The notes under the pieces were generated by a model, which was not told the DNA's origin, did no database searches, and was given only the letters and a program-made list of their open reading frames with translations. From the NCBI GenBank assembly GCA_964387845.1, contig CAYLXA010000013.1, positions 1 through 64,000 of the forward strand: 64,000 bases of DNA. Reading direction: 5' to 3'. The DNA comes from an uncultured bacterium (GTDB lineage: Bacteria; Omnitrophota; Omnitrophia; Omnitrophales; Abzuiibacteriaceae). The translations under genes were made by a program, and so were the position numbers. Below are positions 21,310-64,000 of this stretch, one piece after another. Position 1 is the stretch's first letter, and each line of letters begins with the position of its first letter.

Positions 21310-21320
21310 GATTTACAATT

Positions 21321-21393
21321 AGTTGTAAGTTTTAAGTTATAAGTGCTAAGTAAATCGAACTACTTACCACTTACAACTTATCACTTAACACTT
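21321..21393. repeat. GTAAGT-heptad hairpin R1 (atpD-atpC intergenic)
   Basis: Left arm of nnTAAGT heptads (21321-21352), right arm of inverted heptads (21361-21393). Confidence 0.7.
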
Positions 21394-21395
21394 GG

Positions 21396-22876
<1,481 letters not shown>

Positions 22877-38462: not shown

Positions 38463-40373
38463 TTATTTAAAAACTCCGTAAAGAATCCACAAAATTCCGA
38501 CAAAAACGAAAAATAGATAATGATGGATAAATCCGGTTTGGAAAAGCCGCAGCACGGAACTCAAAGTTTGCGTGATCCATCCCGTAAAGTTCACCAAGCC
38601 GTCAACGATATGCTGATCGATCCAAAATTTTACCCGAGCACTCCATTTGCCGAAGCGGCCCGTATCATTCACGATGCGGTCGACAACTTTTTGATCGAAT
38701 TGAAATAAGAAATCCGCCTTCCATTGAAATAAGCGGCCGAATGTGGCGCTATAAATTTCATCGAAATAAAGTTTGTTGAGAGAAACCGTGTAAAGCGGTT
38801 TCAGGCTTTGTGCGATTTTAGCCGGAATGTCGGTTCTCACCAGATAAAACACGTAAGCCATTACAGCACCTAGAGTTGCAACAACTATCGATAGAATCAT
38901 CAGCGTGTAATTTGGATGAATTTCCTCCGGATGGCCGCCGTGCAAAAAGGTTTGAAACCAATGATGCATGAAAGGCGAACCGGGAATACCGGCACCGACC
39001 GCAAACACAGCCAAAATCATCAAAGGAACCGTCATCGACGCAGGGGATTCGTGCGCGTGAATGTGGCCGCGTGTTTTTCCGAAGAAAGTCAAAAATGTGA
39101 GCCGGAACATGTAAAAGGAAGTTAAAAATGCAGTGATAACAAGCAGCGCCAAGATAACGTAATGCCCGGACTCGTAAGCGCTGAGCAGAATTTCATCTTT
39201 GCTCCAAAATCCGGCAAACGGCGGAATGCCTGCGATTGCGATTGTCGCGATTAAAAATGTCCACGCCGTTTTCGGCATATGCTTGAACAGCCCGCCCATT
39301 TCACGAATGTCCTGCGTACCTGTGCCGTGAATCACGGAACCGGCGCCCAAAAAGAGCAGTGCTTTGAAAAACGCGTGCGTCATTAAATGAAAAGAGCCGG
39401 CGCTGAATCCTCCGCAGCCCAAAGCTGCGATCATATAACCAAGCTGAGAAATCGTTGAATAGGCGAGCACTTTTTTAATATCCGTTTGCGTCAGTGCAAT
39501 AAAAGCACCGATGCAAGCGGTTGTGGTTCCGATAACAGCCACAACGTCAGCGGAATTTGGAAACGCTTCATAAAGCGGCGTGAGGCGCGCAACCATGTAA
39601 ACGCCTGCGGCCACCATTGTCGCGGCGTGAATCAAAGCACTGACGGGTGTCGGGCCTTCCATCGCATCCGGAAGCCATACGTGAAGCGGAAACTGCGCCG
39701 ATTTTCCGATGGCACCGCAAAAGAGGAAAATTCCGGCAATTCCGACAATCCAGGCATTGTGATGATGGAAGAAGTCGTGATTGAAATCCGCGAAAAGTAC
39801 GGTCCCGGTGGAATAAAAAAGAAGTGCAATGCCGATGAAAAATCCGACGTCGCCGATCCGGTTTGTGATAAACGCTTTCTTGCTGGCGTCAGAAGCGGAT
39901 TTCTTTTCAAACCAGAATCCGATCAAAAAGTAAGAGCAAAGGCCGACAAGCTCCCAGAAAATATACATTTGGACAAGATTGGTTGCGAGCACAAGGCCGA
40001 GCATCGAAAATAAAAAGAGCGCCAAGTAAGCGAAAAAGCGCGAATACCGCGCATCTTCATGCATGTAGCCTGTCGAGTAAATCACGATGAGTGAGCCGAT
40101 GAATGTGACGACAAAAAGCATCATCGCGGTCAAAGGATCCACCATAAATCCGAATTGAAGCGCTTTAGCGCCGAAGGGAAGCCAGTCAAAATTGATGAGA
40201 ATCGTCTCGCCTTTCAGAACCGGCTGAATGACGATCATCGACAAAATAAAAGAACCGACGCTGGCTGCGATGGTGACGAGCGAGGCTTTGTGCTTCAGCG
40301 TTTTTCCGAAGAAAATATTAATCGTAAACGCCGCGAGCGGAAGTAATGGAATTAAAGCGAGTTGAGTTACCAT
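38463..40373 (-). CDS. nuoL: NADH-quinone oxidoreductase subunit L (copy 2)
   Basis: HVWLPDAMEGPTPVSALIHAATMVAAGVY motif, 636 aa. Confidence 0.92.
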   Translation of the reverse strand: MVTQLALIPLLPLAAFTINIFFGKTLKHKASLVTIAASVGSFILSMIVIQPVLKGETILINFDWLPFGAKALQFGFMVDPLTAMMLFVVTFIGSLIVIYSTGYMHEDARYSRFFAYLALFLFSMLGLVLATNLVQMYIFWELVGLCSYFLIGFWFEKKSASDASKKAFITNRIGDVGFFIGIALLFYSTGTVLFADFNHDFFHHHNAWIVGIAGIFLFCGAIGKSAQFPLHVWLPDAMEGPTPVSALIHAATMVAAGVYMVARLTPLYEAFPNSADVVAVIGTTTACIGAFIALTQTDIKKVLAYSTISQLGYMIAALGCGGFSAGSFHLMTHAFFKALLFLGAGSVIHGTGTQDIREMGGLFKHMPKTAWTFLIATIAIAGIPPFAGFWSKDEILLSAYESGHYVILALLVITAFLTSFYMFRLTFLTFFGKTRGHIHAHESPASMTVPLMILAVFAVGAGIPGSPFMHHWFQTFLHGGHPEEIHPNYTLMILSIVVATLGAVMAYVFYLVRTDIPAKIAQSLKPLYTVSLNKLYFDEIYSATFGRLFQWKADFLFQFDQKVVDRIVNDTGRFGKWSARVKFWIDQHIVDGLVNFTGWITQTLSSVLRLFQTGFIHHYLFFVFVGILWILYGVFK

Positions 40374-42927: not shown

Positions 42928-42936
42928 CTAAACTCC

Positions 42937-43016
42937 TAGTTGTAAGTTGTAAGTGGTAAGAGATAAGTAAAAAGCTTTTAACTTAACACTTATCACTTAC
43001 CACTTATGCCTTATCT
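42937..43016. repeat. GTAAGT-heptad hairpin R3 at the nuoD/nuoI junction
   Basis: Left arm tagttgtaagttgtaagtggtaagagataagta, right arm aacttaacacttatcacttaccacttatgccttatct. Confidence 0.7.
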
Positions 43017-48800: not shown

Positions 48801-51800
48801 GGCTGCGAAATACTGACAGTCGATATAGATATTGTTGTTGTGCTGAATCGCCGCAAAATCTGTGTAGTTGAAGTAAGCTGCGCAATAAGCCGGCGCCGCT
48901 TCTTTTTTGTAAACGATGTTGTTTAAGAACTGAATGTTGGGGGCGCTTGACGGACTTGCCTCTGCGCCGATGAGGACCACGTAACTATCGTATCCGTTGC
49001 CGATCAGTAAATTGTTATAGAATCGGCCGTTTTCTTGGACGTTGTCCAAAGACAAAGCTTTTCCGATCGATGCGTCTACCACGTTATTAAAGAATTCAAT
49101 GTTGGAACCTATGCCGCCGACCGTGCCGTTGATGTAATTGTTGTAATAGCGGCTGTTACGGTTGAGTTGAAGTGCGCCCGAAAGGCCGGCGTTGATCGTT
49201 ATGTTGTTCGAAAATAAATTGCCAGCAGCATGTCCATAAATCACATGGCCGTATCGGTCATAGGTGTATTGCCAAGGATCTGATATTTCTGAAAGGCATA
49301 TCTCAACAGGATAGCTGGAGTCGTCGGCAATGACGAGAGGCCCGATATTTTCAAATCGGTTGTTCTGATAAGTAAAATAGTTATCAATTGTCGGGTGGGG
49401 CGTTAGATCCGCGATACCCATGCTATTAAGGCTTCTGAGAGTACTGTCATAAACTTCGATATATTGACCGGGATTTCCGCCGGGCAGCGGGTTCATTTTA
49501 ATACCTTCCTCGCCATGCTGAATGGTTAAGCCGATGAAACGGATGTAGGATGCTGACGTGTAAAACCGGTTTTGTCCGGGAAAGTAAAACGAATGTTCTG
49601 ACGGGTTGGTCCCGGACGGGAGGCGAATGTATAAGCGCCCACTTGTGCAATCGATAAAATAAGCGTTGAATGAAGTATTGGAATTCGGGATTGTTAATAC
49701 ATCAAGCATATCTTGATGACGGAGCATGCGGCTGAAGGGCCGTTCAAGATCCATGATTATGCCTCTCGGATAATTTCCTTCACCGCCGTTTGCGTTAGGA
49801 TCGTATGTTCCAAGCGATGTATCAGTCCACCAGATTGAATAATTGCCCGCGTTTTCTGAAAATGTCCAGTTTGAAGGAATGCTTGCTCCCGAATCAATGA
49901 CCGGTGTTTCGCCGGGATAGTTTCGAATGGTTACCCACTGATTCGGCGCTCCGCCGCGATCCATAAGGTTGTAGGATCCAAACGGCTGTGTTCCACCGCG
50001 GATGTAAACCGTATCTCCAGGATTGAGCTGATCAAACGTTGCGCTTACATTGCAAATCGGCTGGGCAAGAGATCCGGGGCCGCTGTTGCTGCACGCCGGA
50101 TTATTTGCATCAACTACGTAGTAATTTCCCGCGCAATCGTTTGAACAATCAAAATGGCTTTCACGCCGGAGATCACAGTAACCGTCACCGCAAGTCCCGG
50201 CGCAATCCTGCGAGCAGGTTTGAACCGTCTCTGGCGCTTCACAAATACCGTCGCCGCAAAGTGCGGTAGTGGTAACCGAAAAAGACGCTTCAATGGTGTG
50301 GGTTGTTTGTACGTTGTTAAACGTATAACTGGAAATAGCGCCTTGCGAAACGCTGTCGACGAGCACATCCGTAATTTCGTAACCGATATTGGGCGTGATT
50401 GTAAATATTTGATCGCTGCCTTCGGCAACATTGACCGTGCCGTTCGGTACAATGTAGCCGCCGTTATTTGCTGTTGCATTAATTGAATGTGAAGGGCCTT
50501 CTACTTGGCAGATTGAGCTGCAGCCGTCGCCGCTTGCCGTATTGCCGTCGTCGCAAGTTTCATTGCCGACGACTAAACCGTCACCGCAAATTGGATTACA
50601 TTCTGGGTTGCTGCCGGGATTTACAGTGTCAACGGAACAGGTCCAACCGGCCTCGTAATAAATCGTGTCTTGCATAATGGCCGAAATGTTTCCAACACTA
50701 TCAATCAATCTGGCAAACACTGTCCGTTCACCGCTCGGCCCGCTGGCAAGTTTCCAGCGCATGACGTTTTCATACGGAGTCGGGTCACTCCAAATTGTTC
50801 CGTTATTAGAAAATATTACGGATGTGATCGAGGATCCGCCTGAGTCAGAAACCGTTAAGTAGATATGCGAGTCTAACGAATAAGTAACCGCCGCGTCATT
50901 CTCAATCAGTATTGTTCCGCTCGGCGGTTCAAGATCAACGACAAACTGAACCACATTGGAATATTCGGTTGGGTTCCGCCCAAGTTGAAACGGCGGCACG
51001 GGCGGTGATTCCCATCCGCGCACGCGGGCGTGATAAGTATTTGAGGTGCTCAACGAAACAGGAACAAACGTATCGTTTGACCAAAGAGTCGTAACATTGG
51101 AAGCAAAATTAGGGTCGGTTGAAATTTTGATTTCGTAAGCATTTGAGCCCAGCGACGGAGTCCAAGCGAGATTAAAATCGCCGTCATTGGGCGTTGCGGG
51201 TTGCGCCAGAACAGGCTGGACGGCGGCTTGTGACGCAAAAGCCCCAATGTGGCAGCCTGTGCTTCCGGTTGGCGTGACGGAAACATTAAAACCGTTTTCG
51301 ATGACATTAAGGCACATGCCCGAGTGGCTTGCAGGACTGCCCGGTTGAAGATTGAAATCAGCGTTTGCGAGATCCACAAATTGCGGATCTGCTTGAATAT
51401 TTGAATCTGCCAGATTGAAGTTATTAAAATCAGCTACTGAGTAAAGCCCGCTCACCACGATTTGCCCGTTTCCGCCGCCATCTTTTAAAGCTCTAATAAC
51501 CGAAGTTTCGTGGGCCGGATTAGACGAGTAAATCAAATTATTTCGAATGTCATCGCCGTATCCGCCAAAATTCGTATCAACATATTCCAGCGGATCGTAA
51601 TGAAGCATTAGTAGCTCAGCATTGAAAGTATTGCCGAAAGAGACTGGTGAAACATAATCATGGTTGGCATCCATCAAAATATTGTTCCAGATGCGGACAT
51701 TATATATAGCATTCAGGGCGTCCGGAGGATTCCAGTTGAAATTGGCAGTATAAATTCCACGCGGCCCCGGACTGTGAATGGTATTGTTAAAGATGTATAC

Positions 51801-54800
51801 GTCCTGAATTAAATTTTGGTCAGCAACATTTGCAACGAGCGTGATTCCGGTAGAATCGTTAAATCCGTCATAAATAACGTTATTGTAAATGTAAAGTCGT
51901 TCTGTTTTTCCGGGCCCGATTTGAATTGCGCCGCCGCGGTGATTTGATTCTGAAGGGAATTGGTTGGTTCCAAAAAACGTGTTATTTCGAATAATCGTAT
52001 TTTGTGAAATGCCGGGATTTCCGTCAATTGAACCGATGCCGAATGAAGTGTGAAACCGATTTCGGAATGTATTATTCTCTATTAAAACATTTTCAGAATT
52101 CCGGAAACCGACAGTTCCATGTCCGCAATCACCGAACCAGCTGTTTTTAATAGTCGTATTTCTTGCATCATCGCCAACAATTCCGTCAACGCCGCCGCCG
52201 TTCATCAGAAGCAAGCTCGGGCTTGCCGTGCAATTTAAATTTAAATTGTCAATCTCTACTCCATCGGTATCGAGAACTTTAATTCCGTTTGCCCAAGGTT
52301 CCGCGTAACTTTGCTCCGGCGGCCAGCGGTGGCCAATGCCGATATCATCATTTCCGGTGAATGAAGTGACTGATATATTTTTGAGCTTGACGCCATTTGA
52401 CCGTTGAATGCCAAGCACGTAGGGTGCATACAATCTTCCGCCTGCGGTATCGATATGCCCAATGAAATTTAATGAATCAAAAGTAATGTCGTTTGCCAAA
52501 TAAGTTGTCAGCATATATATGCCGATATTGCTGCCTTGAGCCGTCATACTGCTGCCGTGTAAATTCACGGTTTCATTCGGATAGCCGCGAATCGTAATCG
52601 GGTTTGCCTCAGTTCCCGAACTTCGGATGACAATAAAATTGTTTGCATCAATGTAGGGGAGGAAGTAATCGCCGCCCCGAATGTAAACCGTATCGCCGAT
52701 ATTTAATTTTTCATAAGGAGACGTTTCACGAAGCGCTCTCGGCGTGCACCACGGCGTATTGGGATCGAGTGCTTGAGTTCTTGAGTAACTGTCCGAACAG
52801 TCACAATTATTTTGATCAATGAAAAGCATATTAGTTCCGTTCGCAAGCTCTTGCGGGTCGGAACTGCCGACCGTGCATCCGCCTTCGGATTGGCTTGTAT
52901 ATTCAAATGCGCCGGGCGCGCAACTTCCGCTTTCAGGACGCGGATTTCCGTCAAAATCCACCGCAACTTCCGGAAGACAAGGGACCGAGCCGATCGCAGG
53001 GCTGTCCTGCTGTAAATGAAAATCGCCGATACCAGCGTTTACGAAAAGCGGGTTGCCGTCTACGTTGTCTTCGGCGAATGACAGTGCATTAAATTCGTCG
53101 ATGGTGTAGTGATAACGCTGCGTGTTCCGATTGTTGGTGCTTTGGACCGGGTCTTCGGCAGGATTGAGTTCTTTGACCCAGTTATTTTCAAACACATTTC
53201 CATAGCCATTTTGGCCTTCAAAATCCCAGCCGCCCAGCCGGATTTCGCCGTGAATTTGTTCTCCTTCGCCCGTATAAGTTTGAATTCCGTAGAAAATATT
53301 ATTTTTGATTTGATTATTATTGGCCCAATTATTTTGGCCGAAAACGCCGTTATTGCCGACGCTCATGTTGGCGTAGCCTGTGTTGTAAACCGTGTTGTGA
53401 AAGATTTTATTGTTGTTGGCTTCAAAGAATCCGGTGCCGGGCCCGTTTTGATCCTGAGAATTGGCAATCGAAATTCCGTTTCCATTTAATGCGCCGTTGT
53501 AAATCACATTGTTATAAATCAGGTTGTCACTGGCCCCCAAAATCTGAATGCTGTTTGCGCGAAGCGTGGTCTCCGAAGGAATTGAATTGTAAGTATGAAA
53601 CGTGTTATTCCGGATGATGTTATCGTGAGAACCGACACCAACGGCGATATTGGTATGGAGCGTATTTGAAAAATCATTATTTTGCACCAAAACGTCATGC
53701 GTATTAAAACGAAGCACAAGTAGAATGTGGCCGCAGTCACGGAATGTATTGTTTTCGATTAAGCCGCCCGAGACATAATCCATCATGATGCCATCGCCGG
53801 AATAGCGGTTGTCCGGGTTAATTTGATCGTTAACTTGCATGCATCGGAAAAAACTATTCTTCACTGTGATGTTGCTTGCATTATCAAATTCGATGCCGTT
53901 GCCATAAGGTGCATTAGGAGCGCGATCGTCGTAGCCGATGTCATCGGTGCCTTTGAAGTCAACAACCGAAATGCTGTCAAATACAATATCGCTGCTTCCG
54001 CTGACAACCTCAATGACTCGCGGGCCATACAATTTTCCGTTTGGGTTACCAACATCCACGTTGCCGACAAAATGAAGATTTTCAAATGTGATGAAATGAA
54101 CGTCATTCAGAACAAATGTGCGTTCGAACGCTGTGTGCGCACCGCGGATGACTGCCGTTTCGCCGGGATATGAAGTGAATGTAATTCGGTTGCTATCGCT
54201 TGTGCCCGATGAATTGATTCTGACTGTGGTATCGACGATCGGATATTCACCGCCGCGAATATAAACGGTGTCGCCTGCGTTTAATTTGTGATTGGGCCGG
54301 TTTTCATGAAAGCCAAGAGGCGAACACCAGGGTGTATAAGGATCGCGTGCCGCATACCGGTCTCCAGCGTCGCTGCAGTTGCAATTATTTTTATCCACAA
54401 AGAGAACATTGGCGCCGTTGGCAAGCCCTTGCGGGTCAGAGCTTCCGGCTATGCAGCCTCCGAGCTCTGATGGGTGATTGTTGGGATCGTTGGGATTAAA
54501 TCCGCCTGCAAATTCTTCACCGTCTGAGTAGCCGTCACCGTCTGTGTCCGGATTATTAGGATCCGTGCCGTTTTGAAATTCCTGCAGATTGATAAATTGA
54601 TCATTGTCCGGGTCATCCGTGCCGTTTTGATTGAGATTGCCGAAGTGCAGCATTTCCCAAACGTCCGGCAAACCGTCTTGATCTGTATCTGAAGTGTCGT
54701 TGTAAACATACTCGAATGGACCGATGTCGCAGGCAGCGCCTTGCGGCCGGATATGGTTGTCAAAATCAAAATCTACTTCAGGAACACAGATTCCGGCATC

Positions 54801-56777
54801 CACTGCCGAGCTTTGCTCGGTTGGGTGAAAATCGTGATTCTGCGGATCGACAAATAAAGGCACGGTTCCGAGATTATCTACGATTGTTCCAGTCCCAAAA
54901 AGGTTATCCAGATTTTGAAGTGTGTAATCAAAGTGTATATACGGAGGATTGGAAGTTCCAAAATTTCGCGTAGACATCACAAATCCGCCCGGGTTGTCAG
55001 TCACCAGCAAATTATTTTTGATTTCATTTCCGTAACCCTGATTGGGTTCGAAGCCATAAATATCAAAGAAAATAGGACGGTTGAGATAATACGCATATGT
55101 CTGAGAGTAAGGTCCGTCGGCAGCTCCGCCGGTTTTAAGCTGGATGATATTGTTTTGCACTTTGTTGTCATGCACATAATTGGTATTTGGCAACAGGACG
55201 TCATTTATATCCGGACGATTATTAAACTCAATCGCTTTTACCATAGAGTTGTGCGTGGTTGCTGTCGGGTCGTCCATATAAATTAAATTATGATAAACCT
55301 GGTTCCGGTCGGAATTCGAATCGCCGTTTCCGATAAAAGTAATGCCGTGCAAGGAACGCCGCCTCGGCTCGTCAGCGTCGTAGTAAATGATGTTGTTGTG
55401 GATTTGGCTGTCGGAAGCCGAGAGCATTTCAATGGCATGGCCGCCTTGGTTTCCCGTGGTCGGGTACACATTCCAGTTGTAAATCAAATTATTTTTAATA
55501 GTCATTTGACTGCCGCCGAATGCAAAGCAGGTATGAAGTTCGTTATTACAGGAATTATTTTCAACCGTTATGTTGTCAGACCATCTAACCGTTAAGCTGA
55601 TATGTCCGCAATTTCCAAAAGTACTATTTTTTACGCTGCCACCGGATACGCGATTAAATTGAATCCCGTCGCCCGAGAAGCGAAAATCTTCGGTCGGGCG
55701 CTCAGAGTATTCAGAGCAGCTGACAGATGCATTCTCGATTTTAATATTAGAAACGTCATCAAATTGTATTGCACTCCCCCAAGTTTCATAGTCTTCCCCG
55801 GTTTTCCGCCACCTAAAGCCGTAACCGATGTCATTGAGGCTTTGAAAATTAAGAACGCTTGTATCTAAAATTTGAATATCTTGGGCTGGATTTCCAACAG
55901 TCCCGCTAATTCTCAACGGATTCGGCATGTAAAGTCTGCCTTCCGGCGTATCTTCATAGGCAATAAAATTAAGCCCCTTTAACGTAATGTAGCTGGCGTT
56001 ATTCAAGATCAGAATCCACGAATAATTATAAGAGCCGCCGCGTATGGTAACCGGCTCATAACCACTCGGTTCAGTTTGAGAGGGATATGCTTGGATCGTG
56101 ATCCGCTGCGCAGGCCCGGCGCCGGACGTATTAACGCTCGCATTATGTTCCGTATAGTCGCCGCGGCGAATGAAGACTGTATCGCCCGGATTCAATTTAT
56201 GGTTTGGCCTGTATTCGGTTAACCCGCGCAAACTACACCACGGTGTTGCGGGATTTAAGGCTTCCGGGCGTTCACGGTTATCGCGGCAATTACAATTGCT
56301 CTGATCGACAAACAGAACATTCAGCCCATTTGCCAAATTCAAAGGATCTGTATTGTTGTCACACTGACGAAGTGGAATACTGCTTGCGTTGGTCGGGCTA
56401 CTGCCTAATCTGATCTCGTCGTCATCATTGACGCCATCTCCGTCTGTGTCATATCCGATGTTTCCGTTGCCCACAGTTGGATTGGTATTAAAAGCAACTT
56501 CCCGAAAGTTGGGCACTCCGTCTCTATCCGGATCGTCGTATTGATCATAACTTGTGATATCGCCAAAGTATTGAATTTCCCAATCATCTGAAAGGCCATC
56601 AAAATCAGTGTCAATTTCACCGGCGGCAATTTGGGGAAGGGGAATGCCCATGAAGACGAGCGTGAAAATAATGATCAAAGAAACAAAATCAGAAAGAAAT
56701 TTGGAAACAACTTTCTTGAACTGCCGGGATTTTATTTTTTTTTTGTGTGATTTATCTGATTCGGAGCTTCGTCCCAT
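45891..56777 (-). CDS. giant (3628 aa) secreted/surface protein of repeated modules
   Basis: Uninterrupted 10.9-kb ORF with an N-terminal K-rich/hydrophobic signal. Four modules each begin ...LANG.N.LF.D..NC.C...PWC... GDTVYIRGG, followed by NN.I..N beta-helix-like turns. Modules: calcium-binding (thrombospondin type-3-like) DxDxDG repeats, four ~550-aa right-handed beta-helix (pectate-lyase-fold-like) domains, fibronectin-III-like stretches, two InlB B-repeat-like segments (YTFNNV..HTIEA.F), and about a dozen tandem ~38-aa Cys-rich repeats (CDDGN.CNGTETC). Confidence 0.85.
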   Translation of the reverse strand: MGRSSESDKSHKKKIKSRQFKKVVSKFLSDFVSLIIIFTLVFMGIPLPQIAAGEIDTDFDGLSDDWEIQYFGDITSYDQYDDPDRDGVPNFREVAFNTNPTVGNGNIGYDTDGDGVNDDDEIRLGSSPTNASSIPLRQCDNNTDPLNLANGLNVLFVDQSNCNCRDNRERPEALNPATPWCSLRGLTEYRPNHKLNPGDTVFIRRGDYTEHNASVNTSGAGPAQRITIQAYPSQTEPSGYEPVTIRGGSYNYSWILILNNASYITLKGLNFIAYEDTPEGRLYMPNPLRISGTVGNPAQDIQILDTSVLNFQSLNDIGYGFRWRKTGEDYETWGSAIQFDDVSNIKIENASVSCSEYSERPTEDFRFSGDGIQFNRVSGGSVKNSTFGNCGHISLTVRWSDNITVENNSCNNELHTCFAFGGSQMTIKNNLIYNWNVYPTTGNQGGHAIEMLSASDSQIHNNIIYYDADEPRRRSLHGITFIGNGDSNSDRNQVYHNLIYMDDPTATTHNSMVKAIEFNNRPDINDVLLPNTNYVHDNKVQNNIIQLKTGGAADGPYSQTYAYYLNRPIFFDIYGFEPNQGYGNEIKNNLLVTDNPGGFVMSTRNFGTSNPPYIHFDYTLQNLDNLFGTGTIVDNLGTVPLFVDPQNHDFHPTEQSSAVDAGICVPEVDFDFDNHIRPQGAACDIGPFEYVYNDTSDTDQDGLPDVWEMLHFGNLNQNGTDDPDNDQFINLQEFQNGTDPNNPDTDGDGYSDGEEFAGGFNPNDPNNHPSELGGCIAGSSDPQGLANGANVLFVDKNNCNCSDAGDRYAARDPYTPWCSPLGFHENRPNHKLNAGDTVYIRGGEYPIVDTTVRINSSGTSDSNRITFTSYPGETAVIRGAHTAFERTFVLNDVHFITFENLHFVGNVDVGNPNGKLYGPRVIEVVSGSSDIVFDSISVVDFKGTDDIGYDDRAPNAPYGNGIEFDNASNITVKNSFFRCMQVNDQINPDNRYSGDGIMMDYVSGGLIENNTFRDCGHILLVLRFNTHDVLVQNNDFSNTLHTNIAVGVGSHDNIIRNNTFHTYNSIPSETTLRANSIQILGASDNLIYNNVIYNGALNGNGISIANSQDQNGPGTGFFEANNNKIFHNTVYNTGYANMSVGNNGVFGQNNWANNNQIKNNIFYGIQTYTGEGEQIHGEIRLGGWDFEGQNGYGNVFENNWVKELNPAEDPVQSTNNRNTQRYHYTIDEFNALSFAEDNVDGNPLFVNAGIGDFHLQQDSPAIGSVPCLPEVAVDFDGNPRPESGSCAPGAFEYTSQSEGGCTVGSSDPQELANGTNMLFIDQNNCDCSDSYSRTQALDPNTPWCTPRALRETSPYEKLNIGDTVYIRGGDYFLPYIDANNFIVIRSSGTEANPITIRGYPNETVNLHGSSMTAQGSNIGIYMLTTYLANDITFDSLNFIGHIDTAGGRLYAPYVLGIQRSNGVKLKNISVTSFTGNDDIGIGHRWPPEQSYAEPWANGIKVLDTDGVEIDNLNLNCTASPSLLLMNGGGVDGIVGDDARNTTIKNSWFGDCGHGTVGFRNSENVLIENNTFRNRFHTSFGIGSIDGNPGISQNTIIRNNTFFGTNQFPSESNHRGGAIQIGPGKTERLYIYNNVIYDGFNDSTGITLVANVADQNLIQDVYIFNNTIHSPGPRGIYTANFNWNPPDALNAIYNVRIWNNILMDANHDYVSPVSFGNTFNAELLMLHYDPLEYVDTNFGGYGDDIRNNLIYSSNPAHETSVIRALKDGGGNGQIVVSGLYSVADFNNFNLADSNIQADPQFVDLANADFNLQPGSPASHSGMCLNVIENGFNVSVTPTGSTGCHIGAFASQAAVQPVLAQPATPNDGDFNLAWTPSLGSNAYEIKISTDPNFASNVTTLWSNDTFVPVSLSTSNTYHARVRGWESPPVPPFQLGRNPTEYSNVVQFVVDLEPPSGTILIENDAAVTYSLDSHIYLTVSDSGGSSITSVIFSNNGTIWSDPTPYENVMRWKLASGPSGERTVFARLIDSVGNISAIMQDTIYYEAGWTCSVDTVNPGSNPECNPICGDGLVVGNETCDDGNTASGDGCSSICQVEGPSHSINATANNGGYIVPNGTVNVAEGSDQIFTITPNIGYEITDVLVDSVSQGAISSYTFNNVQTTHTIEASFSVTTTALCGDGICEAPETVQTCSQDCAGTCGDGYCDLRRESHFDCSNDCAGNYYVVDANNPACSNSGPGSLAQPICNVSATFDQLNPGDTVYIRGGTQPFGSYNLMDRGGAPNQWVTIRNYPGETPVIDSGASIPSNWTFSENAGNYSIWWTDTSLGTYDPNANGGEGNYPRGIIMDLERPFSRMLRHQDMLDVLTIPNSNTSFNAYFIDCTSGRLYIRLPSGTNPSEHSFYFPGQNRFYTSASYIRFIGLTIQHGEEGIKMNPLPGGNPGQYIEVYDSTLRSLNSMGIADLTPHPTIDNYFTYQNNRFENIGPLVIADDSSYPVEICLSEISDPWQYTYDRYGHVIYGHAAGNLFSNNITINAGLSGALQLNRNSRYYNNYINGTVGGIGSNIEFFNNVVDASIGKALSLDNVQENGRFYNNLLIGNGYDSYVVLIGAEASPSSAPNIQFLNNIVYKKEAAPAYCAAYFNYTDFAAIQHNNNIYIDCQYFAAGGIEWSSPDPITNFNNWRSFLNGVDTYSSLQTATDVLMVNFSEAPSVNDYDLHSESAAIDAGFPMPNLHTDVRDRPRDAQTDIGPYEYQSTLQNENPTVDLGNDQTVAFGTSAIINGGVTDDGLPNPPGAVTVSWSQVTSSGGIATFNPPNNTSTSVTFSHPGSYQLRLTADDSMLTGSDDIMISVNFSAPPGVSANPPSPNLGAFNLEWDAVPGAAIYQVQLSPDPNFVQNIDERWPSGIFEPFVISQTGTYYARVQAWSQPPQDGGFGSGFSPAITIVVQACLTDANCSDNNTCNGTETCVSGSCQPGTPLACDDGNLCNGTETCDSVLGCQLGAPLNCGDADACNGIESCDPTLGCLSGVPLNCDDGIACTNDSCDSLSGCVHTTDNSVCSDGLFCTGAEICNAALGCQSNPAPCSGPNLICDETNDQCTGCLNDSDCDDSNACNGTETCQAGICTAGTSLVCDDGNICNGTETCDSALGCQSGIPLTCDDGNVCNGPESCDSTLGCQTGAPLVCDDGNPCTAEACDPATGCESTPVVDGMSCSDGLFCTGAEICIAGICQNGTEPCSDPDHCDEPNDQCFACISDSECGDGNLCNGAEACVNNTCQAGTPLVCDDANVCNGTETCDPGLGCQASAPLVCDDGVSCTNDSCDSVNGCANTPDDSICSDGLFCNGSETCNATAGCQSGTSACDTGEECDEANDMCICPEGAPCNPLAFTITASASEGGQISPVGDVVVNEGDNATFTITPDSRYEIQDVLVNSTSVGAVSSYTFNNVTSDHTIEATFAVIPESPATNGETQNPPDSNPDEGGPENGSPQETANPQNTGGYYTPGIVGVIVPYNNPSPGTQPAAASGSGNVPRQAASNTKANVSGAIATITGGLETLDESAVVQNEPISTAKSLIQSSTRVAPLQIGVASLQQLDKFNGEMIRLRGGPKPSGNPVKTFFEILFEILVEKAPTTISLSV

Positions 56778-58258: not shown

Positions 58259-58342
58259 GTCATTGCGAGATACGTTATTTGGTATCGAAGCAATCTCGGT
58301 ACTTAGATTGCTTCGGCACTGCACAACGCGCCTCGCAATGAC
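58259..58342. repeat. 85-bp palindromic element with ATTGCGAG terminal inverted repeats, copy A (5' of the membrane-protein gene)
   Basis: tGTCATTGCGAG ... CTCGCAATGAC terminal inverted repeats and an internal 12-bp hairpin cgaagcaatctc / gagattgcttcg. Confidence 0.65.
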
Positions 58343-59048: not shown

Positions 59049-59133
59049 CGTTATTGCGAGGCGCCTTAATCAGCGTCGCGGCAATCCCTGTTCTGAGATT
59101 GCTTCGGCGTTAATCAACGCGCCTCGCAATGAC
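59049..59133. repeat. 85-bp palindromic element with ATTGCGAG terminal inverted repeats, copy B (3' of the membrane-protein gene)
   Basis: ATTGCGAGGCGC ... GCGCCTCGCAATGAC. The 3' half is nearly identical to copy A (gattgcttcggc...caacgcgcctcgcaatgac). Confidence 0.65.
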
Positions 59134-60775: not shown

Positions 60776-62503
60776 ATGCTCGATAAATTGGTATTGCCTT
60801 CAGAAATTAAGAAGTTTGAGGAGATGGTGATTAAGCTCGAAAAGGGCGAAATCTCATCCGATGAATTCAAAAAATTCCGCCTCAATAATGGTGTCTACGG
60901 AATCCGCAATTCTGACGACACCCACATGATCCGCATTAAAATCCCGTTCGGCGCTTTGAGTTCCGAACAGCTGGAAGCCATTGCAGATGCGACCGAGAAA
61001 TACGCGCCGCTGAAGATGGGGCACGTCACGACCCGTCAATGTATTCAGGTTCACAAGATCAAGCGCGAAGATGTTGCTAAATATTTGGATATCATCGGAA
61101 AAGCCGGTGTCACGAGCCGTGAAGCGTGCGGCAACACAGTTCGAAATGTGACCGCATGTCCCTACGCAGGTGTTTCAAAATCCGAAGCTTTTGACGTGAG
61201 GCCCTACGCTGAAGTCATAGTCGAATATTTTCTGCGCAATCCGCTCAATCAAAATTTACCGCGGAAATTCAAAATCGCACTCGAAGGATGCCCGGAAGAT
61301 CACGCACGCACGCCGATTCATGATTTGGGGCTTGTGGCTGCGATTCGCAAGGTGAACGGAAAAGAAGAGCGCGGCTTTAAAATTTATGCGGGCGGCGGCT
61401 TGGGAAGCCACCCGGTCAGCGCCGTGCTGCTCGAACCTTTCACGCCGATGGAACTCGTTTTGCCGACGTGCGATGCGACGGTCCGCATTTTTGAGCGCCA
61501 CGGAGACCGCAAGAACCGTTCACGTGCTCGGATTAAGTTTTTGCTTGAAGATTGGGGCGAAGAAAAATTCCGCAAAGCGATTTTAGATGAGCGGGCTGCT
61601 GTTCTTTTCACACGATCGGGCCTAGCGTATCCTAAATTTGATATTCAGGACGAAAAACCGCCGGTTGTAAAAGAAAAGGCTGAAAAAGTGACATCGCCTG
61701 CGTTCGAAAAGTGGCGAAAGACCAACGCGGTTGAACAAAAACAAAAAGGTTTTTACTCGGTCGCAATCCGCTGCCCGCTGGGTGATGTGACGGTTTCCCA
61801 GATGCGCGATATCGCAAAAATCGCGCGCAAATTCTGCGGAGGCAGAATTGTAACTACTATCACACAAAATTTCATATTCGCGTGGGTGCACGAAAATTAT
61901 CTGGGGTCTGTTTATAAAGAGCTCGAAAAAATTAATCTCGCATTTGATGGCGCCGAGCGCTTCATTGATGTGACGCGCTGCCCGGGAGCTGACACTTGTA
62001 ATCTCGCGATTACAAAATCGCGCGGGCTTGCGCAGGCAGTCGATCAGCTTTTCAATAACGGATTGAGCCCGCTTTCAGATCTCGAGGGAATCGACATTAA
62101 AATTTCAGGCTGCCCGAATTCTTGCGGCCAGCACCATATTGCTTCGATGGGTTTTTACGGAACTGCCCGGAATGTAAACGGAAAACTCGTGCCGCACTAT
62201 GAATTAATGATCGGCGGCGGAACGGTAGAGGGAAAAGCCACGTTTGGCGTTGCCACGATCCGGATCCCTGCGCGCAAGACGCCGGATGCCGTCAAACACT
62301 TGGCCGGCATTTATCAAAAGGAAAAAAAGTCGGACGAGACATTTAATCAATTCGCTGCCCGCATCGGAAACGAGCGGATCAAGAAAGAGCTCGAACCGTT
62401 TACGCATTTGGAAGCGTATGATACCGATCCCGAAAACTATCAGGATTGGACCGACGAAGCACCGTTTAAACTTCAGGTCGGCAAGGGCGAATGTGCAGCT
62501 TAA
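60776..62503 (+). CDS. ferredoxin-dependent sulfite/nitrite reductase hemoprotein (siroheme-[4Fe-4S])
   Basis: Two NIR/SIR repeats and cluster-binding Cys motifs C-x5-C (CPGADTC) and C-x3-C (CPNSC). Confidence 0.85.
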   Translation: MLDKLVLPSEIKKFEEMVIKLEKGEISSDEFKKFRLNNGVYGIRNSDDTHMIRIKIPFGALSSEQLEAIADATEKYAPLKMGHVTTRQCIQVHKIKREDVAKYLDIIGKAGVTSREACGNTVRNVTACPYAGVSKSEAFDVRPYAEVIVEYFLRNPLNQNLPRKFKIALEGCPEDHARTPIHDLGLVAAIRKVNGKEERGFKIYAGGGLGSHPVSAVLLEPFTPMELVLPTCDATVRIFERHGDRKNRSRARIKFLLEDWGEEKFRKAILDERAAVLFTRSGLAYPKFDIQDEKPPVVKEKAEKVTSPAFEKWRKTNAVEQKQKGFYSVAIRCPLGDVTVSQMRDIAKIARKFCGGRIVTTITQNFIFAWVHENYLGSVYKELEKINLAFDGAERFIDVTRCPGADTCNLAITKSRGLAQAVDQLFNNGLSPLSDLEGIDIKISGCPNSCGQHHIASMGFYGTARNVNGKLVPHYELMIGGGTVEGKATFGVATIRIPARKTPDAVKHLAGIYQKEKKSDETFNQFAARIGNERIKKELEPFTHLEAYDTDPENYQDWTDEAPFKLQVGKGECAA

Positions 62504-62505
62504 TT

Positions 62506-62539
62506 TAGTGATAAGTTGTAAGTGGTAAGTGCTAAGTTA
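62506..62539. repeat. GTAAGT-heptad repeat arm R4
   Basis: tagtgataagttgtaagtggtaagtgctaagtta. A single arm between convergent gene ends. Confidence 0.6.
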
Positions 62540-63068
62540 ACTGCCAAGCAAGTTCCAAAAAATCTTTCTTCGTAGAATCCCAGCCGAATAATTTCGCACC
62601 GCGGGCTTTACCCCTGACTCGAACGGAGTCAGGGACTGCGTCGGCCGCGAAGCGATCGGCTTCGCTGTCCGCGCTGTCTTTTGTAACGTCGACTACTAAA
62701 TAATTCACATCAGGCATCAGAGGGCTGCCATCAAACGTCGCTTGTTTTTTATCTTCGTCCGAAAAATAAGAACCGACATCAACGTGAGAATGATAAATAA
62801 TCCGGATGACCTCGTCTTTTGTACGGGCGACTTTTTCGATATTCAAAAGGTCTTTGGGATCTAAAAAGTAGGCAGTTTTGCTTGTTCGCGGAAACTTTTG
62901 AGGGTCGCTTGCGTGCATTTCATCCTGCAAATTCCGGCAGGGAAACGAGTTTTCAAGACTTGCGGGAATCCCTTTTTTGCCGGTAATGATACCGCAACAT
63001 TCGGAAGGATAGGCTGAAATAGCATGGCGATAAACCGCGTCTATGATTCGTTTTTTGATTGTAACCAT
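62532..63068 (-). CDS. JAB/MPN (JAMM) metalloprotease, Mec+-like
   Basis: JAMM motif E...HSHVDVGSYFSDED (H-S-H-x7-S-x2-D). Confidence 0.75.
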   Translation of the reverse strand: MVTIKKRIIDAVYRHAISAYPSECCGIITGKKGIPASLENSFPCRNLQDEMHASDPQKFPRTSKTAYFLDPKDLLNIEKVARTKDEVIRIIYHSHVDVGSYFSDEDKKQATFDGSPLMPDVNYLVVDVTKDSADSEADRFAADAVPDSVRVRGKARGAKLFGWDSTKKDFLELAWQLT

Positions 63069-63100
63069 AGTTGTAAGTGGTAAGCGCTAAGTGTTAAGTA
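63068..63100. repeat. GTAAGT-heptad repeat arm R5
   Basis: tagttgtaagtggtaagcgctaagtgttaagta. Contains the JAB start codon and the last 4 codons of the four-helix-bundle gene. Confidence 0.6.
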
Positions 63101-63455
63101 AAAGGGATTTTTGAAAACCGCAAAGCATTCTTCCGACCTCATCACAATTTTCTGAAATTAGTTCAAACTTTTCATGACTAATATAAGCCAAATCAAAGCC
63201 TAATAACAGATGATATTTAGTTTCTTCTAGAGAGCTATCAGCTAAGTTTAGAAAATGCAGAAATTCTTTCCTGCTTTTTCTCTTTTGTCCTTCTACGATG
63301 TTTGTAGAAATGGAAGCGGCAGCTCTGCGTAATTGACTAGATAATCCGAATTTTTCGTCTGACGGGAAGCTTTTAGTAATTTTATAAACTTCCAAAACCA
63401 ATCGATGAGCTTTTTGCCAGACTTTTAAATCACGAAATGTACTAATTTTATTCAT
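63087..63455 (-). CDS. four-helix-bundle protein of the 23S rRNA intervening-sequence protein / Avd-like family
   Basis: 122 aa with the family-typical DLKVWQKAH...EKFGL.SQLRRAA.SI..NI.EG pattern. Confidence 0.7.
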   Translation of the reverse strand: MNKISTFRDLKVWQKAHRLVLEVYKITKSFPSDEKFGLSSQLRRAAASISTNIVEGQKRKSRKEFLHFLNLADSSLEETKYHLLLGFDLAYISHEKFELISENCDEVGRMLCGFQKSLLLNT

Positions 63456-63500
63456 AAACCCTCCTTGAATTAATATGATTATTTAATTCGTGGAGGGAAA

Positions 63501-63537
63501 AACTTATCACTTACAACTTACCACTTAAAACTTAGTA
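63501..63537. repeat. GTAAGT-heptad repeat arm R6 (inverted relative to R5)
   Basis: aacttatcacttacaacttaccacttaaaacttagta is the reverse-complement type of R4/R5. Confidence 0.6.
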
Positions 63538-64000
63538 CCTTGCCATGCTCGGATCAACGCGCTCAGCCCACACATCGATTCCGCCGGTCAGGTTTTTCAA
63601 CTTCTTAAACCCGCGCGATTGAAGGATTTGCAGCGCTTTCATGCTGCGCCCTCCGTGATGGCATTGCAGCACAATCTCTTTTGAGGGATCAAGCTCTCCG
63701 GTTCGATTTTGAATTTCACCCAGCGGAATGAGTTTTGAACCTTCAATGTGGCAAATGTCGTATTCAAACGGCTCGCGAACATCAATCAAAACCACTTCTT
63801 TCCTGTCGAGTCTCTTTTTGAGTTCTTCAACCGTGATTTCAATCGAATCGCCTTTTCCTTTTGCTGCATCTTCACCGACAGATTCCTGGCCGATCCGCAG
63901 GCCGCAAAATTGTTCGTAATCGATTAATTTTTTAATCGTCGGATTTTTTCCGCAGATGGGGCACTCCGGATCTTTTCTTAGTTTCAATTCGTGAAAGCGC
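63532..64000 (-). CDS. MoeZ/MoeB-type E1-like adenylyltransferase fused to a rhodanese domain (C-terminal part; the gene runs off the window)
   Basis: CPICGK (C-terminal Zn CxxC of the ThiF/MoeB fold) followed by a rhodanese domain with active-site CHHGGR. The N-terminus lies beyond 64000. Confidence 0.75.
   Translation of the reverse strand, partial: RFHELKLRKDPECPICGKNPTIKKLIDYEQFCGLRIGQESVGEDAAKGKGDSIEITVEELKKRLDRKEVVLIDVREPFEYDICHIEGSKLIPLGEIQNRTGELDPSKEIVLQCHHGGRSMKALQILQSRGFKKLKNLTGGIDVWAERVDPSMARY

What the first reader, a model, noticed from the sequence alone, without database searches (positions are those of the whole stretch)
63068..63537. Avd-like four-helix-bundle gene packaged between inverted GTAAGT-heptad arms, a possible mobile mini-cassette
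The 122-aa four-helix-bundle gene (23S-rRNA-IVS protein family, which also includes the Avd accessory proteins of diversity-generating retroelements) is flanked by arm R5 (63068-63100) and inverted arm R6 (63501-63537). Elsewhere (R1-R3) the same arms face each other across a 10-20-bp loop; here the loop is effectively replaced by a gene. The arms are packed tightly against their neighbours. R5 contains the JAB start codon and encodes the last four residues of the four-helix-bundle protein. R6 overlaps the moeZ stop. R4 overlaps the JAB stop. This looks like insertion of a small cargo gene into a pre-existing hairpin element. The family's members are known to ride inside rRNA intervening sequences. 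No reverse transcriptase or TR/VR repeat is present in the window.
Basis: partly seen in the sequence, partly recalled or inferred. Interest (0 to 1): 0.6.

Follow-up and report, generated by a model that had tools for sequence, protein, structure and literature searches.

The report
Four-helix-bundle gene between heptad-repeat arms
A small gene of unknown function sits between two mirror-image runs of five 7-base repeats, and the same packaging surrounds its relatives across many bacterial phyla, which ties this large protein family to the unexplained 7-base repeats that litter bacterial genomes.

Summary
A 122-aa PF05635/TIGR02436 four-helix-bundle (4HB) gene (63087-63455, minus strand) fills the moeZ-JAB spacer. 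It is bracketed by two convergent arms (63068-63100 and 63499-63541). Each arm has five 7-nt units: xAGTnn followed by four TAAGTnn.

The same arms form gene-less hairpins at the atpG/atpD, atpD/atpC and nuoD junctions. Five related moeZ-JAB loci lack the gene. The gene-less hairpins are also missing from close relatives, so both look like lineage-specific gains.

The main result goes beyond the window. Of 81 homologues from about 20 phyla, 72% are flanked by inverted arrays of roughly 7-nt repeats, against 5% of neighbouring genes (p=2e-26). The repeat sequence differs by lineage and by paralogue, the polarity is constant, and five units per arm is the commonest count.

Published data fit this. 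The Coxiella 23S rRNA intervening sequence has GACAGAT heptamers in its RNase III stem. Xanthomonas XCC0516 (PDB 2GSC) abuts a GGGAATC array.

It is not a diversity-generating retroelement. I read it as an intervening-sequence-type cassette lying outside rRNA. The likely, untested, mechanism is that the 4HB protein acts on the heptad arrays, much as RAYT transposases relate to REP repeats. I found no paper linking this family to heptamer repeats.

The parts
63499..63541 (-). Upstream arm R6, read in the gene's sense. It has five TAAGTnn units plus a degenerate sixth. The TAA of the outermost unit is the moeZ stop codon (63532-63534).
   Evidence: alignment A1.
63456..63498 (-). Leader of the 4HB gene. 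It holds a Shine-Dalgarno sequence (GGAGGG) that is predicted to pair with CCCUCC in a small inner hairpin (arms 63459-63473 and 63483-63497).
   Evidence: inverted repeat I18, 87% complementary; minimum-free-energy structure.
63087..63455 (-). Four-helix-bundle protein gene, 122 aa, PF05635/TIGR02436. Predicted pI 9.1; 33% GC against 47% for the flanks.
63068..63100 (+). Downstream arm R5, with five units (ATAGTtg TAAGTgg TAAGCgc TAAGTgt TAAGTa). It contains the 4HB stop codon and last four codons, and abuts the JAB start codon (63066-63068).
62505..62538 (+). Lone arm R4, five units, between the convergent stop codons of the sulfite reductase gene and JAB. It is as complementary to R6 as R5 is, so it offers an alternative stem that would enclose 4HB and JAB together.
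   Evidence: (inverted repeat I1, direct repeat D1).
62532..63068 (-). JAB/MPN gene (CysO-type deubiquitinase-like), the downstream neighbour in the same operon.
63532..64000 (-). 3' end of moeZ (ThiF plus rhodanese domains), the upstream neighbour. In L001 the full operon reads cysM(PALP)-moeZ-4HB-JAB.
21319..21394 (.). Gene-less hairpin R1 of the same five-unit TAAGT family, in the atpD/atpC spacer.
   Evidence: (dG -31.3, z -5.4).
22803..22876 (.). Gene-less hairpin R2, in the atpG/atpD spacer. The relative L219 has the uninterrupted flank 'CGGACTCGAATG', which serves as an empty site.
   Evidence: (dG -31.0, z -7.1).
42936..43015 (.). Gene-less hairpin R3, between nuoD and a 4Fe-4S subunit gene.
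   Evidence: (dG -30.8, z -5.5).

Best explanation
**What it is.** The 470-bp segment is one copy of a widespread cassette type. A PF05635/TIGR02436 four-helix-bundle gene is bracketed by two convergent arrays of about five 7-nt units. This is the same build as the ORF-bearing intervening sequences (IVS) of 23S rRNA, but here it sits in a protein-coding operon.

**Shown.**
- The cassette exactly fills the moeZ-JAB spacer and is absent from five related loci.
- The arms belong to the same repeat family as gene-less hairpins elsewhere in this genome.
- Those hairpins are themselves lineage-specific insertions at intercistronic hot spots.
- The gene-arm association is general across phyla.

**Predicted.**
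- The cassette is co-transcribed with cysM-moeZ-JAB.
- In the RNA the two arms pair into an imperfect stem of about 33 bp that encloses the ORF.

**Inferred.**
- By analogy with the Coxiella IVS, this stem is an RNase III substrate. The 4HB message would then be cut out and the moeZ and JAB messages separated.
- TAA in a 7-nt period puts stop codons in all three frames for translation reading into the cassette from either side.
- The basic protein, whose solved homologues each have five chains in the PDB entry and which is reported as a pentamer for Xanthomonas, recognises the five-unit arrays as RNA or single-stranded DNA.
- On that view, gene plus arms is the protein-encoding member of the repeat family and the gene-less hairpins are its targets or derivatives. 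This parallels RAYT genes flanked by the REP repeats they act on.
For: **In the window.**
- Gene identity.
- Arms: 27 matches against 0.06 expected.
- All 9 window arms (R1-R6), and 14 of the 15 aligned arms including relatives, have one xAGTnn unit plus four TAAGTnn units, with invariant cores and variable 2-nt spacers.
- The minimum-free-energy fold of the minus-strand RNA 63055-63550 pairs the two arms around the ORF (dG -134.5, z -6.2).

**Insertion.**
- Relatives L003, L007, L215, L216 and L217 have no 4HB gene between moeZ and JAB.
- The relative's own 4HB cassette, with GTAAGTC arms of five units, lies at another locus.

**Generality.**
- Inverted-repeat score of the flanks: median 34 for 81 4HB genes against 16 for 147 neighbouring genes. 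A score of 26 or more was reached by 72% against 5% (Mann-Whitney p=1.8e-26).
- Period 7 dominates.
- Polarity is constant: 29 of 35 upstream arms contain AG and 4 contain CT.
- Among TAAGT arrays from metagenomes, 24 close pairs are convergent and none divergent.
- The commonest count is five units per arm on both sides.
- Paralogues in one locus carry different heptads (L022, L053, L068).
- The same heptad recurs elsewhere in the same locus in 26% of loci, against 1.3% in cross-locus tests.
- Protein identity tracks heptad similarity (rho -0.17; 0 of 2000 permutations reached it).
- 4HB genes are lower in GC than their flanks in 81 of 82 cases.

**Gene-less hairpins are recent.** L219 (atpD 96% identical) has different palindromic elements at the same ATP synthase junctions. 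L220 and L221 have spacers of 2-16 nt there.

**Literature.**
- Coxiella IVS: GACAGAT heptamers upstream of the S23p ORF, inside a 28-bp terminal stem cut by RNase III (PMC4990558).
- Xanthomonas: repeat #15 (GGGAATC, four units) overlaps the start of XCC0516, which is PDB 2GSC and a homologue of the window protein at E=5e-16.
- Both solved homologues have five chains per entry.
Against: - No experiment or computation here shows that the protein touches the repeats. The link is associative.
- The correlation between protein identity and heptad similarity is weak and could reflect shared descent alone.
- From the repeat side, only 1 of 120 metagenome stretches with TAAGT arrays holds a 4HB gene. 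Most arrays therefore exist without a nearby gene.
- Loops of intermediate length show no 4HB remnants, so there is no direct evidence that gene-less hairpins arise by loss of the gene.
- About a quarter of homologues lack clear arms, and a few have one arm only (PCC 7120 plasmids).
- No target-site duplication or recombinase was seen, so the insertion mechanism is unknown.
- RNase III cleavage and co-transcription are inferred, not observed.
- L007 carries a lone heptad array at the orthologous spacer, which fits arrays arising before the gene arrives.
Confidence: 0.6

Rival explanations
1. Hairpin first, gene second. Heptad hairpins spread or arise on their own, and 4HB genes later land in their loops. 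This could be because loops are safe sites, or because the gene's insertion is targeted to them.
For: - Gene-less arrays and hairpins far outnumber gene-bearing ones: five to one in the window and 119 of 120 metagenome stretches.
- L007 has a lone four-unit TAGTGnn array at the orthologous moeZ-JAB spacer.
- Hairpins insert at intercistronic hot spots without any gene.
Against: - Arms accompany the gene across about 20 phyla, with heptads specific to each paralogue within a single locus.
- The arms also occur in rRNA intervening sequences, where no pre-existing heptad hairpin is expected.
- In this small sample, the only recognisable gene between TAAGT arms was a 4HB gene: L103, one of two loops longer than 300 nt.
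- No mechanism is known for inserting a gene into a hairpin loop.
Confidence: 0.18
2. The arms are protein-independent signals that any selfish small gene needs in order to live inside operons. They would form a stem for RNase III excision and provide three-frame stop codons as insulation. The 4HB protein would then do something unrelated, such as a regulatory, toxin-like or accessory role. Gene-less hairpins would be independent users of the same structural solution.
For: - The predicted arm-arm stem encloses the ORF.
- RNase III cuts the equivalent Coxiella stem, and the authors of that study argue the RNA matters more than the protein.
- 25 of 35 heptads contain a stop triplet.
- Heptad hairpins recur at ATP synthase and groESL junctions in unrelated phyla.
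Against: - A stem alone needs no 7-nt periodicity, no invariant core with variable spacers, no fixed polarity and no preferred count of five units.
- 10 of 35 heptads have no stop triplet, and some arrays have periods of 8 or 9.
Confidence: 0.17
3. Chance juxtaposition. The arms are ordinary terminators or intercistronic hairpins that happen to flank this gene.
For: The same arms occur at other gene junctions in the window.
Against: - Only about 6 of roughly 55 spacers carry heptad arrays.
- There is no T tract, and no terminator is called at the arms.
- 72% of homologues have flanking inverted arrays, against 5% of neighbouring genes.
Confidence: 0.02
4. An orphan or decayed diversity-generating retroelement, in which the gene is an Avd accessory protein left behind.
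For: Weak matches to bAvd (PF22296, 50 bits) and to the Avd NCBIfam model (60.6 bits).
Against: - The Avd equivalog score is below its cut-off of 80.
- The neighbours are moeZ, JAB and sulfite reductase, with no reverse transcriptase within 10 kb either side.
- There is no template/variable repeat pair.
- Only one distant hit was found in viral contigs.
Confidence: 0.03

Closest known systems
ORF-bearing intervening sequences of 23S rRNA (Coxiella burnetii, Leptospira, Xanthomonas, Brucella; the 'S23p' ORF)
   Same: - The protein family is the same (PF05635).
- The ORF lies in the loop of a long stem formed by terminal inverted repeats.
- In Coxiella the 5' arm carries three or four tandem GACAGAT heptamers just upstream of the start codon, and RNase III cuts in that stem (PMC4990558).
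- These elements have also been suspected to be mobile.
   Different: - This element sits in a protein-coding operon spacer, not in helix 9, 25 or 45 of 23S rRNA. No rRNA is present in the window.
- The arms belong to a dispersed family of gene-less hairpins in the same genome.
- The literature read here did not describe heptad arms as a general feature of the family.
REP/REPIN repeats and their RAYT (TnpA-REP) genes. This comparison rests on my own knowledge of Nunvar 2010, Bertels & Rainey 2011 and Ton-Hoang 2012.
   Same: - A low-copy gene is flanked by inverted copies of the very repeat that is dispersed as short intergenic hairpins in the same genome.
- Different paralogues go with different repeat families.
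- The hairpins lie between genes of operons.
   Different: - RAYTs are HUH tyrosine transposases with known DNA-cleaving chemistry. The 4HB protein is a 120-aa helical bundle with no known catalytic site.
- REPs are not built from 7-nt tandem units.
Unexplained intergenic heptamer repeats: Xanthomonas GGGAATC, Nostoc/Anabaena GGGGA(C/T)T and STRR, Beggiatoaceae TAACTGA
   Same: - Tandem 7-nt units in intergenic DNA.
- In Xanthomonas they often occur as convergent pairs (70-75 pairs), mostly four units long, at the atpA/atpG, atpD/atpC and groES/groEL junctions (PMC4692102). The window has its hairpins at atpG/atpD and atpD/atpC.
[quoted passage not shown]
   Different: - None of the three heptamer-repeat papers searched for these terms (PMC4692102, PMC4679880, PMC6344855) mentions the 4HB/S23p family.
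- They proposed G-quadruplexes, phase variation or post-transcriptional control instead.
- The unit sequence here (TAAGTnn) is different.
Avd of diversity-generating retroelements
   Same: - Homologous four-helix-bundle fold.
- The protein is basic.
- The window protein's solved homologues 2GSC and 2RLD each have five chains per entry; that Avd itself is a pentamer and binds nucleic acid while recruiting an enzyme (the reverse transcriptase) is from my own knowledge.
   Different: - There is no reverse transcriptase and no template/variable repeat pair.
- The score is below the Avd model cut-off.
- The heptad arms are not a described feature of these retroelements.
TRAP binding to (G/U)AG repeats. 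This is a mechanistic analogy only and rests on my own knowledge of Antson 1999.
   Same: A ring-shaped homo-oligomer reads a short invariant core that is repeated at fixed spacing with non-conserved spacer bases. Binding competes with an RNA stem.
   Different: The fold is unrelated, TRAP has 11 subunits, and its repeat period is 5-6 nt. Nothing has been tested for the 4HB protein.

Membership tests
PF05635 / TIGR02436 four-helix-bundle (23S rRNA IVS protein) family | Profile score above the curated cut-off over the full domain | tested here: met
   PF05635 scores 141.2 bits against a cut-off of 33.8, covering profile positions 1-105 of 106. TIGR02436 scores 130.2 bits against a cut-off of 24. 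PDB 2GSC matches at E=5e-16.
23S rRNA intervening sequence element | Located inside a 23S rRNA gene (helix 9, 25 or 45) | tested here: not met
   It lies between moeZ and JAB. The Rfam scan of the window finds no rRNA.
23S rRNA intervening sequence element | Terminal inverted repeats form a long stem that encloses the ORF | tested here: met
   The arms are 84% complementary over 31 nt. The minimum-free-energy fold pairs them.
23S rRNA intervening sequence element | Excised from the transcript by RNase III | not testable with these tools
   Shown only for Coxiella and others in the literature.
Diversity-generating retroelement (Avd component) | Score above the cut-off of the Avd equivalog model | tested here: not met
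   NF033474 scores 60.6 bits against a cut-off of 80.
Diversity-generating retroelement (Avd component) | Adjacent reverse transcriptase and a template/variable repeat pair | tested here: not met
   Neighbours with Pfam labels include no reverse transcriptase. No suitable direct repeats are present.
REP/RAYT system | Gene flanked by inverted copies of a repeat that is dispersed in the same genome | tested here: met
   The window arms match hairpins R1-R3. Same-locus recurrence of the heptad is 26% against 1.3% in cross-locus tests.
REP/RAYT system | Gene encodes an HUH Y1 transposase (PF01797) | tested here: not met
   Only PF05635 and PF22296 match.
MITE / insertion sequence | Terminal inverted repeats plus a target-site duplication and a cognate transposase | tested here: not met
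   Inverted arms are present. No duplication is visible at the arm boundaries, and there is no transposase in the cassette.
Integron gene cassette | A single attC site at the 3' end, with an integron integrase and attI nearby | tested here: not met
   There are two symmetric arms, not one attC. The neighbours are housekeeping genes.
Intrinsic terminator | GC-rich stem followed by a T tract | tested here: not met
   No terminator is called at any arm in 62400-63700. The arms are AT-rich and have no T run.

The most novel reading that the evidence does not exclude
The PF05635 four-helix-bundle proteins may be the missing trans-acting partners of the tandem heptamer repeats that are the commonest intergenic repeat in prokaryotes.

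On this reading, each pentameric paralogue reads its own five-unit array, one subunit per 7-nt unit, on RNA or single-stranded DNA. Gene plus arms would be the autonomous element. The many gene-less heptad hairpins at ATP synthase, groESL, nuo and similar junctions would be its targets or non-autonomous offspring. The 23S rRNA intervening sequences would be one special landing site of the same element.
Probability: 0.35. Interest if true: 0.9.

Novelty: new variant of a known kind. Interest (0 to 1): 0.75.

Why it matters
Two old puzzles would meet.

- The 4HB/'S23p' family is large: more than 1,400 clusters matched this one protein at E<=1e-10. Its only known function is the Avd branch of diversity-generating retroelements.
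- Tandem heptamer repeats are described as the most abundant intergenic repeat in prokaryotes, with 'no clear clue' to their function (PMC6344855).

A consistent cross-phylum physical link between the two gives a direct, cheap experiment. One would test binding of a crystallised protein (XCC0516, PDB 2GSC) to GGGAATC arrays, or delete the gene in Nostoc or Xanthomonas.

The link also recasts rRNA intervening sequences as one habitat of a broader element. It further suggests that heptad hairpins shape mRNA processing in operons whose subunits are needed in unequal amounts, such as ATP synthase.

Tried and rejected
- **Reverse search.** An exact scan for TAAGTNNTAAGTNNTAAGT in metagenome contigs returned 120 stretches (687 kb). 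Only L103 has a 4HB gene between arms. Most stretches are lone arrays or short hairpins. The arrays therefore do not usually carry the gene.
- **Decaying cassettes.** tblastn of the family against 61-799-nt loops between convergent arms gave only E=0.1-0.7. This gives no support for hairpins arising by gene loss.
- **Viral contigs.** One distant hit at 33% identity. The cassette is not phage-borne.
- **Rfam.** Nothing matches the arms or the cassette, at gathering threshold or at E<=1.
- **Diversity-generating retroelement.** Rejected.
- **Target-site duplication.** None is visible at the cassette or at R2 when compared with the empty site in L219.
- **Promoter inside the cassette.** None on the gene's strand.
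- **Naming the organism.** Cluster look-up gave no names. The best named homologues of atpD, JAB and 4HB are Omnitrophota genomes assembled from metagenomes.
- **Literature.** Seven full-text searches found no paper linking this family to heptamer repeats beyond the Coxiella note. Subscription-only papers were not searched.
- **Genome collection.** The window's own genome was not in the GTDB representative set, so no genome-wide census could be made.
Full report
**1. The observation**

The region reads, on the minus strand, moeZ (ThiF plus rhodanese domains), then the four-helix-bundle (4HB) gene, then JAB. A sulfite/nitrite reductase gene converges on JAB from the other side.

The 122-aa ORF at 63087-63455 is a full-length PF05635/TIGR02436 member. 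It scores 141 and 130 bits, well above the cut-offs. It scores below the cut-off of the Avd model (60.6 against 80). It is the only family member in the window.

The pattern TAAGTNNTAAGTNNTAAGT, with up to 2 mismatches, occurs 27 times against 0.06 expected. All matches fall in six arms.
- R1-R3 are arm-loop-arm hairpins.
- R4 and R5 are plus-oriented arms.
- R6 is a minus-oriented arm.

R5 and R6 are 84% complementary over 31 nt. R4 and R6 are equally complementary.

The JAB start codon abuts R5 rather than lying inside it.

The same arrangement, with an identical protein, occurs in two independent assemblies.

**2. Anatomy of the arms**

I aligned 15 arms from the window and from relatives. 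Fourteen of them, including all nine window arms, have one degenerate outer unit (xAGTnn) followed by four TAAGTnn units, the innermost ending TAAGTA. The exception, L011, is longer.
- The five core bases are invariant or nearly so.
- The two spacer bases vary.

This is not what simple replication slippage produces. It looks like selection on a core repeated at fixed spacing.

As RNA, the gene-less hairpins fold at about -31 kcal/mol, with z-scores of -5.4 to -7.1.

The whole cassette RNA (minus strand, 63055-63550) folds so that the two arms form a stem of about 33 bp around the ORF. An inner hairpin pairs the Shine-Dalgarno sequence GGAGGG with CCCUCC.

No sigma-70-like promoter lies on the gene's strand, and no terminator is called at the arms. 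Co-transcription with the operon is therefore the simplest reading, though it is inferred.

**3. Is it an insertion?**

Five related loci were recovered through JAB homologues.

| Locus | JAB identity to window | What lies between moeZ and JAB |
|---|---|---|
| L003 | 73% | A 262-aa methyltransferase gene; flanks fully syntenic; no heptads |
| L007 | 59% | A 31-nt spacer |
| L216 | 62% | A 140-nt spacer without heptads |
| L217 | 54% | No spacer |
| L215 | 73% | Gene order rearranged |

- None of the five has a 4HB gene at this site.
- Homology between the window and L003 runs up to the moeZ stop codon and resumes at the JAB start codon. The cassette therefore fills the spacer exactly.
- The genome that contains L003 has its own 4HB cassette at a different locus. 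That cassette has five-unit GTAAGTC arms.
- The window gene is 33% GC against 47% for its flanks.
- The L007 spacer consists of four TAGTGnn units. Heptad arrays can therefore occupy this junction without the gene.

**4. The gene-less hairpins are also recent**

R1 and R2 lie at the atpD/atpC and atpG/atpD junctions. R3 lies after nuoD.
- In L219 (atpD 96% identical, same contig as L003), the two atp junctions hold different GC-rich palindromic elements.
- The flank 'CGGACTCGAATG' is uninterrupted in L219, which makes it an empty site for R2.
- In L220 (88%) and L221 (84%) the spacers at these junctions are 2-16 nt.

**5. The association is general**

A protein-only search of one genome per species returned 80 loci. 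Identity to the window protein ranged from 41% to 67%. The hosts include Omnitrophota, Planctomycetota, Acidobacteriota, Bacteroidota, Cyanobacteriota, candidate phyla radiation groups, Desulfobacterota, Chloroflexota and Proteobacteria.

I scored local alignments between the 150 nt upstream of each gene and the reverse complement of the 150 nt downstream.
- The median score was 34 for 81 4HB genes and 16 for 147 neighbouring genes in the same loci.
- A score of 26 or more was reached by 72% against 5% (Mann-Whitney p=1.8e-26).
- Several of the high-scoring 'controls' turned out to belong to the phenomenon. One was a second, divergent 4HB gene in L022 with different arms. Others were ilvH, atpG and atpA, each flanked by gene-less heptad hairpins.

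Properties of the arms across these loci:
- They are tandem arrays with period 7, and a minority have period 8 or 9.
- The unit sequence differs by lineage. Examples are TAGGGAG, TTAGCTG, TAGCCAT, GAGTTGC, ATCAGGG, TAAGGAT and AGTATAT.
- Polarity is constant. The arm on the 5' side carries the purine-rich, AG-containing strand in 29 of 35 cases. CT appears in 4 of 35.
- Among TAAGT arrays from metagenomes, 24 close pairs are convergent and none divergent.
- The median arm length is 32 nt, and the commonest unit count is five on both sides.
- The downstream arm starts a median of 6 nt after the stop codon. The upstream arm ends a median of 30 nt before the start codon.
- Paralogues in one locus carry different heptads (L022, L053, L068).
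- Additional arrays of the same heptad occur elsewhere in the same 6-kb locus in 9 of 34 cases. In cross-locus tests the rate is 1.3%.
- Protein identity correlates with heptad similarity (rho -0.17; 0 of 2000 permutations reached it). Pairs above 70% identity have nearly identical heptads. Shared descent could explain this correlation.
- 4HB genes are lower in GC than their flanks in 81 of 82 cases, by 7.9 points on average.

**6. Independent support from published data and cultured strains**

[quoted passage not shown] These lie inside a 28-bp terminal inverted-repeat stem that RNase III cleaves. The authors cite the old idea that the ORF might serve mobility (PMC4990558).
- Rehm et al. list 186 GGGAATC arrays in Xanthomonas campestris, including 70 convergent pairs, with no function assigned.
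  - Their supplementary table places repeat #15 across the annotated start of XCC0516.
  - XCC0516 is PDB 2GSC, the closest solved homologue of the window protein.
  - The same table lists pairs at atpA/atpG, atpD/atpC and groES/groEL.
- On plasmids of Nostoc punctiforme PCC 73102 and Anabaena variabilis ATCC 29413, annotated 'four helix bundle protein' genes are preceded by five TCAGGAG or TCAGAAT units running up to the ATG. One or two inverted units follow the stop codon.
- None of the three heptamer-repeat papers (Rehm, MacGregor, Mori) mentions the 4HB family.

**7. What it most likely is and does**

Shown:
- The cassette (arms plus gene) is a conserved unit.
- It is an insertion in this lineage.
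- It shares its repeat family with gene-less hairpins that are themselves insertions.

Predicted:
- The arms pair in the transcript.

Inferred by analogy with the IVS:
- RNase III cuts that stem.
- TAA on a 7-nt period gives stop codons in all three frames to incoming translation. The moeZ stop codon is the first such TAA.

Hypothesis, at about 35-45%:
- The protein recognises the arrays.
- It is basic: pI 9.1 for the window protein and a family median of 9.1.
- Both solved homologues have five chains per PDB entry, and the Xanthomonas homologue is reported to be a pentameric ring.
- Pattern in its favour: invariant cores with variable spacers, fixed polarity, five units as the commonest count, and paralogue-specific heptads.
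- The closest logical parallel is a RAYT gene flanked by its REP repeats. The closest structural parallel is the rRNA intervening sequence.

**8. Limits**

- Nothing here shows binding, cleavage or transposition.
- From the repeat side, the gene is rare: 1 of 120 stretches.
- Intermediate loops hold no gene remnants.
- About a quarter of homologues lack clear arms.
- No recombinase or target-site duplication was found.
- The order of events, hairpin first or cassette first, is unresolved.
- The literature search covered open-access text only.

**9. Verdict**

It is not a diversity-generating retroelement. It is best filed as an IVS-type 4HB cassette outside rRNA, a new variant of a known kind.

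Its main value is the general link it exposes between the PF05635 family and intergenic heptamer repeats. I could not find that link reported, and it is directly testable.

Noticed in passing
window 10968-11045 and 15240-15356: There is a second heptad hairpin family with a different unit (TCAAATn / AAATnTC), also arranged as convergent arms. One copy follows the EPSP synthase gene. The other lies between convergent porin-like and antiporter genes. Folds: dG -18.6 (z -3.8) and -33.2 (z -5.4). A second 4HB paralogue with these arms may exist elsewhere in the genome.
   Followed up: partly
window 62607-62672 (inside JAB): JAB carries a 22-aa in-frame insertion (ADSEADRFAADAVPDSVRVRGK) that is absent from its 156-aa orthologues. 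The DNA there is 68% GC against 42% for the rest of the gene, and it contains a perfect hairpin (ccctgactcgaacggagtcaggg). No other copy occurs in the window.
   Followed up: partly
window 58259-58342 and 59050-59133; L215 about 640-730: An 84-nt palindromic repeat (GTCATTGCGAG...CTCGCAATGAC) flanks the 209-aa Urate_ox_N-like gene on both sides. A related copy lies upstream of JAB in relative L215. This is a second, unrelated family of small dispersed elements.
   Followed up: no
L219 2876-3000 and 4399-4509; L220; L221: The atpG/atpD and atpD/atpC junctions are hot spots. The window has heptad hairpins there. A relative with 96% identical atpD has different GC-rich palindromic elements. More distant Omnitrophota have spacers of 2-16 nt. 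Xanthomonas has GGGAATC pairs at atpA/atpG, atpD/atpC and groES/groEL. L058 and L076 have heptad hairpins around atpG and atpA.
   Followed up: partly
L007 3984-4014: The 31-nt moeZ-JAB spacer of this relative consists of four TAGTGnn units forming a lone arm, at the position where the window has the cassette.
   Followed up: no
L022 200-565: A second, divergent 4HB-like gene lies 2.4 kb from the first in the same Omnitrophota contig. It is flanked by GTAGAGA arms, whereas the first gene has TAAGTTG/TAAGCTA arms. L053 and L068 likewise carry paralogues with different heptads.
   Followed up: partly
L088 1293-1589: A 98-aa GIY-YIG-type gene in Adhaeribacter is flanked by an inverted repeat of about 20 nt that is not built from heptads (tcattctgaaagaatcttctg). 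This is another small gene packaged in a hairpin.
   Followed up: no
window 35380-35433 (minus strand): The nhaA-I RNA motif (Rfam RF03057) matches at 44.1 bits against a gathering score of 37.
   Followed up: no
window 16061-16150 / 36255-36344 and 19340-19476 / 39586-39722: Two paralogous sets of NADH-dehydrogenase/Mrp-type antiporter genes lie about 20 kb apart, with stretches of 78-88% DNA identity.
   Followed up: no
window 45891-56777 (minus strand): A single 3628-aa ORF. The relative L003 has a 3181-aa beta-helix/DUF4215 protein at the corresponding place.
   Followed up: no
L224 and L225 (Nostoc sp. PCC 7120 plasmids gamma and alpha): Identical 4HB genes (WP_010994075.1) on two plasmids lie next to insertion-sequence transposases. 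They keep only the downstream heptad array (CTTCTGC, about five units). The upstream arm appears to have been lost or displaced.
   Followed up: no
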